64,000 nucleotides of DNA from Mobula birostris (taxonomy: Eukaryota): contig NC_092396.1 of assembly GCF_030028105.1 (NCBI RefSeq), positions 27,593,474-27,657,473 of the forward strand. Direction: 5' to 3'. Below are positions 8,456 to 60,441 of this stretch, in pieces. A model generated the notes under the pieces. That model worked only from the letters and a program-made list of their open reading frames with translations. It was not told the DNA's origin and made no database searches. Position numbers and translations under genes: made by a program. Within the stretch, counting starts at the first letter, position 1. Every line of letters begins with the position of its first letter.

Positions 8456-9918
8456 CAGTGCCTATAAAAAGTATTCATCCCCTTGGAAGTTTTTCAAGTT
8501 TTATTCTTTCACAACATTTAATCACAGTGGATTTACTTTGTCATTTTTGTAACTGATCAACAGAGGAAAGGCTCATGTCAAAGTGAAAACAGATCTCTAC
8601 AAAGTGAACTAAATTAATTACAAATATAAAACACAAAATAATTGATTGCATCAGTATTCACCCTCCTTTAATAAGACACACCAAATCATCACTGGTGCAG
8701 CCAACTGGTTTTAGAAGTCACATAACTAGTTAAATGGAAATCTTTTTTGGAGACCTGGGTGCAGTCAAGGTGTTCCAATTGACAAGTAAAAATACACCTG
8801 TATCTGGAAGGTCCAATTGCTGATGAGTCAGTATCCTGGCAAAAACTACAACATGAAGACAAAAGAACACTCCAAGCAATTCCGCGAAAAGGTTATTGAA
8901 AAGCACCAGTCAGGAGATGGATACAAGACAATTTCCAAGTCAATGAAAATTAAGTCAATCATCAAGAAATGGAAAGAATATGCCACAACTGTAAATCTGC
9001 CCAGAGCAGGCCATCCTCAAACACTGAGTGACCATGCAAGAAGGGGACTAGTGAGGGAGGCCAACAAGAGACCTATGACAACTCTGGAGGAGTTACAAGC
9101 TCAGTAGCTGAGATGGGAGAGACTTCATATACAACCGTTGCCCGGGTGCTTCACCAGTCACAGATTTATGGCAGAGTAGCAAAGAGAAAGCCACTACTGA
9201 AAAAGACTATCAGACTAAACGTGTTAGCCAAACACTGCACATCATCAAAAATACACCACTCCTACCCTGAAGCATGGTGGTGGTTGCATCATGCTGTGGG
9301 GATGCTTCACTGCAGCAGGCCCTGAAAAGCTTGTAAAGGTAGGGGAATGCAGCAAAATACACGGAAATCCTGGAGAAAAACCTGATGCAGTCTGCAAGAG
9401 AACTGCGACTTGGGAGATTTCTTTTCCAGCAAGACAAAGACCCTAAGCATAAAGCCAAAGCTACATACAAATGGTTTAGAAATGGCAGTTAATGTCCTGG
9501 AGTGGCTAAGTCAGAGTCCAGACCTCAATTCAATTGAGAATTTGTGGCTGGACATGAAAAGGGCTGTTCACTCATGATATCCATACAATCTGACAGAGCT
9601 TGAGCAATTTTGTAAAGAAGAAATGGGGAAAAATGCAGTGTTTAGATATGCAAAGCTGATAGAGACCTATGTACACAGACTCAAGGCTGTAATTGCTGCC
9701 ACAGGTGCACCTACTAAATAGTGACTTGAAGGTGGTGAACATTACGTAATTATTTTGTGTTTTATATTTGTAATTAATTTCGATCTCTTTGACACGAAAG
9801 AGTCTTTTCCTGTTGATCAGTGTCAAAAAAAGCTAAATTTAATCCACTCTGATTCAATGTTGTAAAACAATAAAACATGAAAACTTCCAAGGGGCTTGAA
9901 TACTTTTTATAGGCACTG
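8456..9918 (+). mobile_element. Tc1-family (DD34E, IR/DR type) transposon, defective
   Basis: TA|cagtgcctataaaaagtattca ... tgaatactttttataggcactg; TIRs of about 200 bp; transposase relic MKTKEHSKQFREKVIEKHQSGDGYKTISK...QQDKDPKH...SQSPDLNSIENLW with frameshifts and a deletion. Confidence 0.93.
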
Positions 9919-49138: not shown

Positions 49139-50342
49139 CAGCGGTCCCCAACCACCGGGCCGCGGACCGGTACCAGGCCGCAAAGTATGTGCTACTGGGC
49201 CGCGAGGAAACGATATGATTTGGTGATATGAGTCAGCTGCACCTTTCCTCATTCCCTGTCACGGCCACTGTTGAGCTTGAACGCACGCGAGGTCATTACC
49301 CGCGCATCATCCATGTCAGCGCAGGAAGAAGATCAACTCCTCGAGCTTGCAAATGATGGCGGGCTGAAAAGTATGTTTGACATAACATCTCTGCCGGCAT
49401 TCTGGATCAAAGTCAAGGCTAAATATCCTGAGATAGCCACGAAAGCACTGAAAACGTTGCTTCCATTTCCAACATATCTTTGCAATGAATGCAACGAAAA
49501 CTAAATTGCAGAATAGACTGGACATAAGGAGTCCCCTTCGAGTATCGCCGTCTCTCACCACCTCTCGATAGGACCGTGTTGTTGCAGGGAAACAAGCCCA
49601 GGGCTCCCACTGGTTCAGCGATATTGGTGTGTTGCAATGGTTTTATATGTTCATACAGGGAAAATATGTGCTGTGTGTTTAATATCCAAACGTTACTTAA
49701 AATGTTATGATGCTATTGACTTATAAGTGACCTATATAACCATATAACAATTACAGCACGGAAATAGGCCATCTTGGCCCTTTTAGTCCGTGCCGAACGC
49801 TATTCTCACCTAGTCCCACGGACCTGCATTCAGTCCATAACCCTCCATTCCTTTCCCGTCCATATACCTATCCAAGTTTTCTTTAAATGATAATATCGAA
49901 CCTGCCTCTACCACTTGTACTGGAAGTTCGTTCAACACTTACTTCAAGCTCCGCTGTCCTCCCCTGATAATTGACTTATCACTATATTCATGTGAGGAAA
50001 ATATGCGCTGTGTGTTTAATATTAAAATCGTTAGATAAACCCTTTTAGAAATGAAATTGAGTGTATTAGTCACTTACCACTTATATTCCAGTCGTGATTA
50101 ACAACTCCGCCCAACAGAATCGCCAAAAATGGTTTGTAGAAAAAAATCAGCACGTACACGTATGCGCACACAGGTGCCCGCGCATTGTAGTCTTTCTCGG
50201 GGCAAACCCAACGTATTTGACTGCTACTCTTGTCCGTTGGCAACCCTACCCGCCCCCCCCCCCCCACCCCCGGTCGGCAGGTCTGCAAGAATATTGTCAA
50301 TATTAAACCGGTCCACAGTGCAAAAAAGGTTGGGGGCACCTG
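49139..50342 (+). mobile_element. hAT (Buster/Charlie-type) deletion derivative, 8-bp TSD CTATAGGG
   Basis: Perfect TSD at 49131-49138 and 50343-50350 with central TA; TIR cagcggtccccaacc; C-terminal transposase relic LPAFWIKVKAKYPEIATKALKTLLPFPTYLC...KQAQGSH. Confidence 0.92.
49738..49937 (-). mobile_element. CR1-like 3'-end fragment embedded in the hAT element
   Basis: acagcacggaaataggccatcttggccc...catatacctatccaag...cctgcctctaccac is the reverse complement of a CR1 tail. Confidence 0.75.
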
Positions 50343-50415
50343 CTATAGGGCACTCGTGAGACCACATTTGGAGCATTGTGTGCAGTTTTGGGCTCCTTAT
50401 TTTAGAAAGGATATA

Positions 50416-52304
50416 CAGGATTCCCCCGCTATCCGAAGGTACAGCGTTCCTATCAAACGGTTCGTAAGCCGGAATGTCGTAAAGTGAATAAGCAATTACC
50501 ATTTATTAATATGGGAAAAATTTTTGAGCGTTCCCAGACCCAAAAAATAACCTACAAAATCATGCCAAATAACACATAAAACCTAAAATAACAGTAACAT
50601 ATAGTAAAAGCAGGAATGATATGATAAATACACAGCCTATATAAAGTAGAAATACTTTTCTGCACTGACTAGCACAGCAAAAATCTCATGGCAGCACTCT
50701 CAGCAGAAACACGGCGCAAGCACTCTTGGCAGAAACGCTCTCTCCAGTAACCTTTAAGCTATGAAGCTGCCAAATCATACCAAATAACACATAAAAATAC
50801 ACAGCTTATATAAAGTAGAAATAATGTATATACAGTAGCCAGTCTTACTATTGCCGTATTTATTGTTGATGGTTTGAAGCCTTTAAAATCGTTCACTACT
50901 TAGGGACACAGTTTCCTCCAAACGCCATTTCTCATCAAGACTGTTAGCCTATTGACAGCATCTCTAATGTTGGCGATTGCCAATCTTATATTGTATTCTT
51001 TCCAGATCTCTCGCAAAGACGCTTTGGAGTTGCCCTCTCTGTCGATGGTACTTACAATAAAACGCATCACATTTTGCGTATAGTAAGCCTCAATTGCAGC
51101 TATTAGGCCTTGGTCACACGGCTGCAGCAACGATGTCGTATTCGACGGTGAGAACGCAACACGAATGTTACCGCCATACTCGGTAACGTCTGGTGGATGA
51201 GCAGCACAATTATCGCCAATCACAAGACACCTATTATCGAGGTTATTTTCTCTACAGTATTTTTCAGCAAAAGGACTAACATATCCACTCATGTACTCAG
51301 AAAAAAGCACTTGGATACTTCAACCACTTGGATGTGAACAGAACACAACGGGAAGTGTTTTATCAACGCCTTTAAGTGCCTTCGTATTTTCTGAATGGTA
51401 CACTAGTAGAAGCTTAAGGACAGCATCACCAGTGGTGTTAATAATAGGCATTAGGGTAAACCTGTCCTTCGATGCCTTGTGTCCCCTAGCCTGCTTTTCT
51501 TCTATCGATTTTTTTTCCAATAAATTGCAGTTTCATCTCAGTTAAGCACTTGCTTATACGAATAACCACCTTCTGTAATTATTTTCTTCAGTTCTGCTGG
51601 GAACTTTTCGGCAGCTTCAATATCAGCTGAAGCACTCTCTCCAGTAAACGCTAAACTATGAAGCTGCCCTCGCCTCAGAAACCCATCAAACCACCCATGA
51701 CTACCTTTAAATTCCACTTTCGCAACACTTTCATCACCATCGTCCACAGCTTTCTGTTTCAGCTTATTAAAAAGACTGACTGATTTCTCCTTAAGTATAA
51801 GAAAACTTAACGGAACACCACGCTTTGTACACCCATCAATCCACTCAAGCAATAGACTTTCCATTTTATCCATTATTGGATGCCGACTAAGAGAGACCAC
51901 TTTGCTACGAGCAGAACCAACAGTAACATCGGCAGCTTTCAAAATTCTTTCTTTCTGCATATAAATAGTGCGAATGGTGGATGCAGGGAAGTTCAACGTG
52001 CAGACAATGTTCACCACGACTGAAACGCTTAATTATGTCTAGTTTTACGCTAAGTGTAACACCCTTACGAGCTCTTTAAGGCTTTTCTGATACCTTAGAA
52101 CTCATCTTGCTAACAGATGCACAAAATAAATTGAGATAAAGCACGTGTTTAAGCAATGCCGGCTAGAATGCAGTTCCAGGGGAGGAGCTGCCTTTTTTCG
52201 TAACAGTGAAAACACCTTCTGTTAGCAAAAACAGGTAACTAATGTAGGTCTTTCGTAACAGCAAGGTGTCATAAAGCGAACGCTCGGAAAACGGGGGCCA
52301 CCTG
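50416..52304 (-). mobile_element. pogo/Tigger-family transposon, defective
   Basis: TA|caggattcccccgct ... acgggggccacctg; CENP-B-like HTH (FKGSHGWF) and DDE relic (KASKDRFT, DNCAAHP, NTTSLLQPCDQG). Confidence 0.92.
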
Positions 52305-56884: not shown

Positions 56885-57015
56885 AATGAATTCTCCCACC
56901 AACAGCTGATCGATGGTTTGCCTGATCTCCACCTTCGTTTGCATCTTGAGCTTATTGTATTGTCTTCTAGCAGCTTCTGCCACGCGTAGCTCTAGTTGTG
57001 ATTGGTAACCAAAGC
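56885..57015 (-). CDS. VPS13D: VPS13D coding exon (approx. exon 17), 131 nt, phase 1/0
   Basis: ttttggtag|GC ... ATT|gtaagt; encodes GFGYQSQLELRVAEAARRQYNKLKMQTKVEIRQTIDQLLVGEFI; phases match both neighbours. Confidence 0.95.
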
Positions 57016-57134
57016 CTACCAAAATGGATGAAAAATTCCACACAATTTTTCAAAAGCAGAAATCTGTAGGCACCTGAGTCCTAGATCTAGATCCTATACA
57101 TTTTCCAAAAAGAACTAACTTACTTTTGCAAGTA

Positions 57135-57915
57135 CTGGTTGAGTACCTATAATCCAAAATGCTTGGGGCCAGAAGCATTTTAGATTTTGGAATATATAAT
57201 AAGATAACTTGGGATCACCATCATTTAAAACTCTGAAATTTACGTGCTACCAGTACACAATCTTTGTCTCACCCTTACTCATCACACATATGAACTTAAC
57301 AGTAAACATTACATACTATGAATATAATGAAAATGTGTGTGCAGGGTAACAAAAAGCAGCACAGCAGCATCAGGAGAATACTTGATCAGTTGTTGAACAA
57401 CATACAAACAATGGCAGGCTTTCATTCTCCACCTTTTGATTAAAAGCCATTACACTGTATTTGAATTTTTTTTTAAGGATTGTAGACTTGTTCTGGTGTT
57501 AGATTTTCATTAGTGGCTCTTTAAAAAAATTATTGTCATGTCTTTTCTTAAATTTCTGCATCCAGACTGCTGAATATACACAATTACCTACAATTTTAAG
57601 TTCCTCATGATAGATCATTGCTTGTTTCATGATCAACATACCATTAAGAAGTACATGTTCACTCTGACGATACATGATTGAGATCTTCATTTTTCACTTT
57701 ATGCAGTGTTTTTCTATTTTTCATTAACTTCTGTTCAAACTTACGTGAAGTCATTTCTCAGATCTGTCTGCGATGCGCAGAGACCTGTGCATCACCTGGG
57801 AACCTTCCCAGCACCCTGTGGAATTTTCGATTTGTGAAGTTATGTCATCACTCAAAAAATTTGGATTTCAGAGGCTTTTGGATTTTGGAATTTCAGATAA
57901 GGGGTACTCAACCTG
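57135..57915 (-). mobile_element. Tigger4/Zombi (MER46)-like pogo deletion derivative
   Basis: TA|ctggttgagtacc ... ggtactcaacctg TIRs; relic peptide SEHVLLNGMLIMKQAMIYHEELKIVGNCVYSAVWMQKFKKRH. Confidence 0.85.
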
Positions 57916-57944
57916 TGTTAATGCTATCCTATGTGACCACACAG

Positions 57945-57978
57945 TAAGAATTGCTTACATATAAGAATTGCTTACATA
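57945..57978. repeat. 17-bp perfect tandem duplication (taagaattgcttacata x2)
   Basis: Directly visible. Confidence 0.9.
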
Positions 57979-60165: not shown

Positions 60166-60261
60166 TTCCATCTGTATTTTGGCCCATAATCCTGAAGTAC
60201 ACTTTAACTTAACCTCCACTGGCTAATGAATGATTACTTTTAAATTTACTTTTCTACGAAC

Positions 60262-60441
60262 CTGAGGTATGCACTTTGCCCTTGTAGAAAAAATCAGCAA
60301 CTTTCTTGATCACTAAAGGGTTATAGATGATGTTGAGGGGTCGAGTGCTGACTTCCAATCTTCTCTCATAGTTACTGCATACTGGATTTTTCTCATAGAT
60401 CATTTCAAATACTGGTGGCAACTTACATGGAGAATAAAAAG
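60262..60441 (-). CDS. VPS13D: VPS13D internal coding exon (approx. human exon 16), 180 nt, phase 1/1
   Basis: Acceptor ttcacag|CT, donor TCAG|gttcgt; encodes PPVFEMIYEKNPVCSNYERRLEVSTRPLNIIYNPLVIKKVADFFYKGKVHTS, recognisable as VPS13D. The 5' boundary is slightly less certain than the 3'. Confidence 0.9.

What the first reader, a model, noticed from the sequence alone, without database searches (positions are those of the whole stretch)
57135..57915. Tigger4/Zombi-like transposon relic very close to the mammalian element: candidate horizontal transfer
Seen: TIRs c(t/a)ggttgagtacc, a TA on the left flank, and a transposase relic. Recalled knowledge: human Tigger4/MER46 begins CAGGTTGAGTATCCCTTATCC.AAATGCTTGGGACCAGAAG and encodes ...RRSEHMPLNGMLIMKQAKIYH.ELKIEGNCEYSTGWLQKFKKRHG. 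The minus strand here reads gaacagaagttaatgaaaaatagaaaaacactgcataaag and SEHVLLNGMLIMKQAMIYHEELKIVGNCVYSAVWMQKFKKRH. The non-coding subterminal DNA also appears alignable. Inference: such similarity in neutral, non-coding TE DNA is hard to reconcile with vertical descent since the chondrichthyan-osteichthyan split. It suggests that the same pogo lineage invaded both elasmobranchs and eutherians. The match is from memory and has not been computed.
Basis: partly seen in the sequence, partly recalled or inferred. Interest (0 to 1): 0.7.

Follow-up and report, generated by a model that had tools for sequence, protein, structure and literature searches.

The report
Ray relic of mammal-type Tigger transposon
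A dead, internally deleted copy of a cut-and-paste jumping gene sits in an intron of the VPS13D gene of what is likely a ray; its family is so close to a transposon fossilised in primates and rodents (93% protein identity, with an estimated low divergence at silent and non-coding positions) that the same element likely invaded both lineages separately rather than being inherited from their common ancestor.

Summary
Observation confirmed. Window 57135-57915 (minus strand) is a non-autonomous pogo/Tigger deletion derivative in a VPS13D intron: ~24-bp terminal inverted repeats, TA on one flank, TG on the other, a broken DNA-binding-domain relic. It is one of thousands of old copies (median 11% from consensus). 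The family's consensus transposase is 93% identical (136/147 aa) to a human transposon-derived ORF (LIPT2-AS1), 84-91% to Glires ORFs, 88-89% to Anolis; host VPS13D is 64% identical to a newt's. Protein identity alone is weak (a sister family with saturated silent sites is still 82% identical), but two indirect DNA tests point to low divergence: translated 5' leader 11/15 identical to primate ORF extensions; an off-frame tail of an unnamed mammal-type copy 34/50 identical (simulated dS at most about 0.5). No mammalian Tigger4 DNA could be fetched, so dS and the name 'Tigger4' are not directly tested. Best reading: independent horizontal invasions, probably via third hosts (0.8). A younger sister family also pairs ray, mammals and lobster. 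Tigger transfers between eutherians and sharks are in print for other Tigger families; this scan earlier noted ray-mammal MER2 cases on other DNA.

The parts
57135..57915 (-). Non-autonomous Tigger/pogo element (subfamily A of own-genome family X), 781 bp, K2P 0.123 from its ~860-bp subfamily consensus
57892..57915 (-). 5' terminal inverted repeat (~24 bp)
57742..57915 (-). 5' TIR plus subterminal non-coding region, 86% to the 5' end of longer family-X copies; the rest of the leader and codons 1-72 are deleted
57518..57737 (-). Broken transposase relic, codons ~73-152 (second helix-turn-helix, HTH_Tnp_Tc5), with an internal deletion and frameshift
57476..57515 (-). Second transposase scrap, codons ~176-189; the DDE catalytic domain is deleted
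57135..57475 (-). 3' non-coding part and subterminal repeats shared with other family-X copies
57135..57158 (+). 3' terminal inverted repeat (~24 bp)
57133..57134 (.). TA target-site duplication, intact side
57916..57917 (.). TG, likely the decayed other copy of the TA duplication
   Evidence: 3 of the other 17 copies also show TG at this side
56885..57016 (-). VPS13D exon (aa 654-697 of newt VPS13D, 93% identical), 118 bp downstream of the element in the direction of transcription
60260..60415 (-). Preceding VPS13D exon (aa 603-654); the element lies in the intron between the two, on the gene's strand

Best explanation
The stretch is a dead, non-autonomous deletion derivative of a pogo-superfamily Tigger transposon inserted at a TA in a VPS13D intron, and its parent element likely entered this cartilaginous-fish lineage by horizontal transfer, separately from the closely related element (probably Tigger4/Zombi) that invaded placental mammals. 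Shown: anatomy, copy family, age class (median 11% from consensus), protein closeness to eutherian, anole and electric-ray sequences. Inferred from established pogo biology: the full-length transposase (CENP-B_N + HTH_Tnp_Tc5 + DD32D) bound the TIRs and moved deleted copies in trans by cut-and-paste, duplicating TA; then the family died and decayed. Inferred from indirect tests: silent and non-coding divergence between the ray and mammal elements is far below that expected after ~470 My. Inferred and untested: the route ran through one or more third hosts (invertebrates or parasites) rather than directly ray to mammal.
For: Ray consensus vs human LIPT2-AS1 ORF 136/147 aa, squirrel 135/148, rabbit 131/146, Anolis 129-130/146, against VPS13D ray vs newt 988/1532 = 64%. 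Last 15 codons of the non-coding leader, read in frame, match the N-terminal extensions of all 7 primate proteins tested at 11/15; local score 61 reached by 0 of 2000 shuffles; simulation gives P(>=11) 0.12 at 25% and 0.003 at 40% base divergence; a family-Y copy scores 3/15. The frameshifted tail of P0037 (unnamed NCBI record, eutherian-type residue T136, groups with eutherian ORFs) matches the ray consensus read in frame +1 at 34/50, versus 20/50 for family Y and 47-48% for the saturated X-vs-Y control; simulations reach >=34 in 27-59% of runs at dS 0.05-0.2, 3% at 0.5, 0% at >=1. Two more unnamed mammal-type tails give 12/18 and 12/17. Copies decay near-neutrally in the host (pN/pS 0.65 for X, 0.82 for Y). 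The sister family Y is 87% identical to an American lobster protein over 388 aa, more than to skates (78-80%), so this clade crosses phyla. DNA transposons evolve neutrally within vertebrate genomes and under purifying selection across transfers; mean synonymous rate ~3.1e-9 (PMC7070016, abstract and passages).
Against: No mammalian Tigger4 DNA was obtained, so dS is simulated, from one 50-codon tail of an unnamed record. Protein identity is weak evidence here: families X and Y have saturated silent sites (pS 0.75) yet 80-82% protein identity. The named eutherian proteins are probably domesticated ORFs under selection. The 45 bp before the start codon may be functionally constrained. Inside family X the tree is unresolved and is not shown to conflict with the host tree. 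Absence from other vertebrates was not tested; protein searches see only annotated ORFs. pN/pS 0.65 is below 1. Elasmobranch clocks are slow (own knowledge).
Confidence: 0.8

Rival explanations
1. Vertical descent: an active Tigger lineage persisted since the jawed-vertebrate ancestor, its protein held by purifying selection on master copies, with separate late bursts in rays and mammals and loss elsewhere.
For: All named family-X relatives but one (Trichuris, a long branch) are vertebrates; the tree inside X is unresolved; saturated silent sites are compatible with 82% protein identity; pN/pS 0.65 among X copies.
Against: Leader 11/15 and off-frame 34/50 need low silent and non-coding divergence; 93% versus 64% for the host gene; about 2.9 synonymous changes per site would be expected from the rate and 473-My split used in PMC7070016 (my arithmetic), and well over 1 even with a three-fold slower ray clock.
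Confidence: 0.08
2. One direct transfer between an early placental mammal and a ray (either direction), with no third host.
For: Eutherian ORFs are the closest named sequences to the ray consensus (93%, ahead of the electric-ray fusion at 88%); copy divergences are of like size (ray 11%; human Tigger4 family 14-15%, PMC1914374 passage).
Against: The same lineage is in Anolis, a frog and a whipworm; Anolis shares the mammal-type residues A26/M52, and the electric-ray protein is intermediate between ray and mammal types; unnamed metagenomic members (P0103) are 91% identical. Equal divergence is not equal age when clocks differ.
Confidence: 0.1
3. Artefact: mammalian contamination or mis-assembly.
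For: None beyond the similarity itself.
Against: Thousands of diverged copies on chromosome-sized contigs with their own subfamilies and TA duplications; ray-type diagnostic residues absent from mammals; the 3.5-kb stretch is held at 0.90-0.92 of words by 4 runs of organism A (one sample, possibly the source) and 0.35-0.39 by 4 runs of organism B.
Confidence: 0.01

Closest known systems
Tigger4 / Zombi and its non-autonomous MER46A/B (Tigger4a/b) of placental mammals (listed in PMC5753468, passages; 14-15% divergence in human, PMC1914374, passages)
   Same: TA duplication; TIR of the same type (19 of 20 bases match the anole TcMar-N17 TIR that PMC3014272 calls similar to marsupial Tigger4 ends); transposase 84-93% identical to eutherian ORFs of this lineage. 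That those ORFs derive from Tigger4 is recalled, not shown by a call.
   Different: Ray-specific deletion subfamilies (~690, ~860, ~880 and ~1100 bp); shorter leader than the primate one appears to be (only the ~70 bases before the start codon align); 12 of 168 residues differ from the eutherian majority.
LIPT2-AS1 / LOC100287896 ORF of primates and the SMIM8-locus ORF of rodents and lagomorphs
   Same: Same transposase N-terminus (CENP-B_N + HTH_Tnp_Tc5). PMC12679747 (passages) calls LIPT2-AS1 a co-opted transposon ORF and notes similar proteins in rabbit, beaver, anole and bamboo shark.
   Different: Those are open, conserved ORFs; the window copy is broken. That paper does not discuss transfer in the passages seen.
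Tigger transfers between Eutheria and Chondrichthyes reported by Diaby et al. 2022 (PMC9219625; parts 2-3 of 7 read, supplement searched)
   Same: Same kind of event, same transposon family at large.
   Different: Their three shark elements have other TIRs (CAGTA-type); neither TIR motif of the ray families occurs in their supplement as held; no batoid seen in the rows looked up; their cut-off was 70% identity.
Anolis TcMar-N17 (PMC3014272, passages and table)
   Same: TA duplication, 26-bp TIR nearly identical at the 20 bases printed; old (17% from consensus).
   Different: 356-bp element in a lizard; no autonomous partner was found by those authors.

Membership tests
pogo superfamily, Tigger family (Gao et al. 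2020, PMC7386202; Diaby 2022) | TA target-site duplication | tested here: met
   13 of 18 copies TA on both sides; this copy TA/TG
pogo superfamily, Tigger family | Short TIRs (8-33 bp) | tested here: met
   ~24 bp, 23/24 in consensus
pogo superfamily, Tigger family | CENP-B_N + HTH_Tnp_Tc5 DNA-binding domain | tested here: met
   Relatives at 83-93% identity carry PF04218 + PF03221; the window fragment alone hits PF03221 below cut-off
pogo superfamily, Tigger family | DDE_1 catalytic domain with DD29-36D spacing | tested here: met
   Family consensus shows DD32D, but from only 2 copies in that part; deleted in the window copy, as expected of a non-autonomous element
Tigger4 / Zombi | DNA identity of about 80% or more over most of the Tigger4 consensus | not testable with these tools
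   No Dfam/Repbase; scans for mammalian DNA empty; supplements of two Tigger surveys lack the TIR motif (cells cut at 400 characters)
Tigger4 / Zombi | Tigger4-type TIR | tested here: met
   Indirect: 19/20 to anole TcMar-N17 TIR, described as similar to marsupial Tigger4 ends
Tigger4 / Zombi | Transposase nearest to the eutherian Tigger4 transposase | tested here: inconclusive
   Nearest named proteins are eutherian ORFs at 84-93%; their origin from Tigger4 is recalled
Horizontal transposon transfer | TE synonymous divergence below host-gene divergence | tested here: inconclusive
   Indirect tests point to dS at most about 0.5 and leader divergence at most about 25-30%; no direct dS for TE or host gene
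Horizontal transposon transfer | Patchy distribution | tested here: inconclusive
   Named hits in Euarchontoglires, Anolis, a frog, batoids, bamboo shark, whipworm, lobster, crayfish, none in teleosts, birds, turtles; annotation-limited, not proof of absence
Horizontal transposon transfer | TE tree incongruent with host tree | tested here: inconclusive
   All-chondrichthyan and all-mammal clades rejected (AU 3e-5, 1e-8, groups named after the first tree), but that only shows two lineages X and Y; inside X unresolved; lobster falls among vertebrate Y sequences

The most novel reading that the evidence does not exclude
Two sister Tigger lineages each jumped repeatedly among rays, placental mammals, lizards, frogs, a whipworm and decapods, reaching rays in the opposite order to mammals: the Tigger4-type family X is old in this ray (11%) and the sister family Y young (4%), whereas in human the Y-like MER46C (assignment recalled) is older (24.9%) than Tigger4 (14-15%). 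The ray's family Y would then be a near-intact image of the missing autonomous parent of MER46C, and this one clade would have been domesticated at least four times (primate LIPT2-AS1, Glires SMIM8-locus ORF, a full-length Euarchontoglires 'jerky-like' gene, a batoid GTF2IRD2-like fusion).
Probability: 0.35. Interest if true: 0.68.

Novelty: new member of a known kind. Interest (0 to 1): 0.5.

Why it matters
[quoted passage not shown] A batoid family nearly identical to a common human repeat lineage gives a dated second landing of the same element, a way to triangulate the reservoir host, and the ancestral state of a transposase piece that primates and rodents appear to have kept as genes. The single copy itself is a dead intronic relic with no sign of function.

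Tried and rejected
Smit and Riggs 1996 and Pace and Feschotte 2007 were not held. Supplements of Gao 2020 (file 3 of 8) and Diaby 2022 hold no element with this TIR; cells are cut at 400 characters. A full-text search for the TIR motifs gave 20 listings unrelated by title. Searches for a prior report found only Diaby 2022; subscription papers and Dfam/Repbase notes are outside that library. No read-level check of the orthologous site in related species was obtained, so presence or an empty site in organisms B and C is open; organism C's 0.06-0.07 share is not used. Whole-protein search with the Narcine fusion was swamped by hAT relics. Protein identity as sufficient proof of transfer was rejected after the X-vs-Y control. 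One-clade tests (20 of 41 rows kept, long, unnamed and redundant rows dropped) were not counted as proof. Orthology of locus L061 with the Narcine fusion exon was considered and left open. A full-length intact family-X copy was not found among scored hits.

Full report
OBSERVATION. The element runs from 57135 to 57915 on the minus strand. It is flanked by TA on the left and TG on the right; its ends pair at 12 of 13 and 18 of 24 bases. It lies in an intron of VPS13D, on the gene's strand, 118 bp before the exon at 57016-56885; the gene was named by tblastn with the top representative hit P0132, newt VPS13D. The host genome has 4.0 Gb; GTF2I-like exons are 65-96% identical to the electric ray Narcine, so the host is likely a batoid, not Narcine itself; this is inference, since organism names are coded.

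THE FAMILY IN ITS GENOME. A DNA search gave 3062 first-look candidates, 40 scored. From 23 of the 30 fetched loci I built an 861-bp consensus (subfamily A) with a 24-bp TIR; copies are a mean 0.138 K2P from it, this copy 0.123. Searches with neighbouring pieces gave subfamilies B (694 bp) and C (883 bp), 13-14% from their consensus, and longer copies with the N-terminus or part of the DDE domain. A codon-mapped consensus from 73 loci covers about the first 295 codons well to thinly and shows DD32D from 2 copies. No intact full-length copy turned up among scored hits. The window copy keeps the 5' end, codons ~73-152 and ~176-189 with a deletion and frameshift, and the 3' end. It cannot make a transposase; by established pogo biology it was moved in trans by cut-and-paste. 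I call this family X. A sister family Y (34 loci) has a different TIR, is 76% identical in DNA to X, and is much younger: median K2P 0.040 against 0.114.

RELATIVES. The 46-aa open fragment's only longer hit was a pika protein at 80%. Searching on gave 53 and 26 proteins, named further by cluster look-up. Lineage X holds the primate LIPT2-AS1/LOC100287896 ORF, a Glires ORF annotated at SMIM8, two Anolis proteins, a frog (Pseudophryne), a whipworm (Trichuris suis), the N-terminus of a Narcine GTF2IRD2-like protein and unnamed metagenomic proteins. Lineage Y holds an intact ~545-aa 'jerky-like' gene of beaver, squirrel, cavy, rabbit, tree shrew and sifaka, two skates, bamboo shark, lobster and crayfish. 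Over residues 18-165 the ray X consensus is identical to human at 136/147, marmoset 136/148, lemur 133/147, squirrel 135/148, rabbit 131/146, pocket mouse 124/147, Anolis 129-130/146, Narcine 116/132, frog 83/102, skates 105/148 and 109/147, ray Y 122/148. Against a majority of three eutherian groups, 12 of 168 residues differ, 11 of them by one base from the ray codon. Host control: VPS13D ray vs newt 988/1532 (64%), exon range 47-93%.

WHY PROTEIN IDENTITY IS NOT ENOUGH, AND THE INDIRECT DNA TESTS. X and Y in the same genome have saturated silent sites (pS 0.75, dN 0.12) yet 80-82% protein identity. So 93% needs support from silent or non-coding sites. No mammalian DNA could be fetched. Two substitutes were used. 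First, primate ORFs are annotated with 41-43 extra N-terminal residues that translate the element's leader. The last 15 match the ray leader read in frame at 11/15 in 7 of 7 proteins tested (these are orthologs, one observation); 0 of 2000 shuffles reach the score; a family-Y copy gives 3/15; simulation puts base divergence near 10-20% and makes 40% unlikely (P=0.003). Caveat: 45 bases beside a start codon may be constrained. Second, frameshifted proteins read the transposase off-frame, where silent positions count. P0037, an unnamed NCBI record that carries the eutherian-type T136 and groups with eutherian ORFs, matches ray X off-frame at 34/50, ray Y at 20/50; the X-vs-Y off-frame control is 47-48% before any neutral decay. 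Simulations conditioned on its in-frame identity (96/138) reach 34 or more in 59%, 49%, 27%, 10%, 3%, 0.4% and 0% of runs at dS 0.05, 0.1, 0.2, 0.3, 0.5, 0.75 and 1 or more. Two other unnamed mammal-type tails give 12/18 and 12/17. Caveat: the taxon of these records is not shown. With the rate (3.1e-9 per site per year) and the 473-My split in PMC7070016 (passages and supplement tree) vertical descent predicts dS near 2.9, and well above 1 with a much slower ray clock (my arithmetic).

TREES. With 41 rows, eutherian X ORFs, Anolis and three unnamed rows form a clade (96/91), lineage Y another (99/93), and ray X, Narcine, frog, whipworm and two metagenomic rows are unresolved at the base, ray X on a short branch (0.03). 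With 20 rows, single clades of all chondrichthyan or all mammal rows are rejected, which only shows two lineages. Inside X, incongruence is not shown. In Y, lobster is 337/388 identical to the ray consensus, more than skates (429/535, 420/537), and mammals 81-83% over ~537 aa: a cross-phylum pattern hard to explain vertically.

MECHANISM. Shown: dead TA-inserted deletion derivative of an old burst. Inferred: trans-mobilisation by a now extinct autonomous element; entry by horizontal transfer, separately from the eutherian invasion (0.8), probably via third hosts, because the lineage also sits in lizards, a frog and a whipworm and its sister in decapods. Rivals: vertical descent 0.08, direct ray-mammal transfer 0.1, artefact 0.01.

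WHAT IS KNOWN. The name Tigger4/Zombi rests on recall plus one paper link: anole TcMar-N17, whose printed TIR matches 19/20, is described as similar to marsupial Tigger4 ends (PMC3014272, passages and table). Human Tigger4 elements are 14-15% diverged and MER46c 24.9%, probably from another, earlier Tigger (PMC1914374, passages); that family Y corresponds to MER46C is my recall of its ends, untested. Diaby et al. 2022 report Tigger transfers between Eutheria and two sharks, for elements with other TIRs (PMC9219625, parts 2-3 and supplement). Gao et al. 2020 list one whale-shark Tigger, also another TIR (PMC7386202, passages and supplement 3). PMC12679747 (passages) treats LIPT2-AS1 as a co-opted transposon ORF with similar proteins in anole and bamboo shark. 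Searches found no report of this family in batoids; subscription papers, bioRxiv supplements and Dfam/Repbase annotations were out of reach and may already record it. Earlier notes of this scan describe parallel ray-mammal cases for MER2 on other DNA (unchecked AI notes); none on Tigger4.

VERDICT. Real feature; a new member of a known kind (horizontal transfer of Tigger elements among vertebrates), with good but indirect support. Interest 0.5; the wider two-lineage, repeated-domestication reading would merit about 0.68 at probability 0.35.

Noticed in passing
G000 family Y, e.g. L107, L120, L128 (G000:C37:26886024-26889968): A younger sister Tigger family (median 4% from consensus, near full-length copies, ~2.5 kb) 87% identical in protein to a lobster protein and 81-83% to an intact Euarchontoglires 'jerky-like' gene; its ends recall human MER46C (recalled, untested)..
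   Followed up: partly
L061 / L194 (G000:C29:44702443 onward) and L196-L197: The best-scoring family-X N-terminal ORF in the genome (194 open codons) lies ~23 kb upstream of, and on the same strand as, GTF2I-like exons; the Narcine GTF2IRD2-like protein is annotated with a family-X DNA-binding domain at its N-terminus. L061 and Narcine are only 80.5% identical and share no evident derived residues: one old domestication, two convergent ones, or chance..
   Followed up: partly
proteins P0054, P0056, P0059-P0061, P0063-P0065, P0118: An intact 500-570-aa transposase-derived gene in rodents, rabbit, tree shrew and sifaka (truncated in great apes, P0105) that is not obviously one of the 12 domesticated pogo genes named in the Gao 2020 abstract; not checked against them.
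   Followed up: no
proteins P0003-P0013, P0018, P0089: A ~305-aa family-X ORF conserved across rodents and lagomorphs, annotated as an SMIM8 isoform; P0002 is a spliced fusion of this domain to SMIM8-like sequence.
   Followed up: no
window 50300-52300 (minus strand): A second, unrelated pogo relic (HTH_Tnp_Tc5 and DDE_1 hits), ~89% identical to copies at G000:C29:44.706 and 44.723 Mb.
   Followed up: partly
window 8790-9450: Tc1-like transposase relic by eye from the ORF list; many CR1/L2-type reverse-transcriptase fragments elsewhere in the window.
   Followed up: no
protein P0085: A 76-aa piece of the human LIPT2-AS1 ORF annotated as a Helicobacter pylori hypothetical protein on a 538-bp contig: likely contamination.
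   Followed up: no
window 57945-57978: Perfect 17-bp tandem duplication just outside the element.
   Followed up: no
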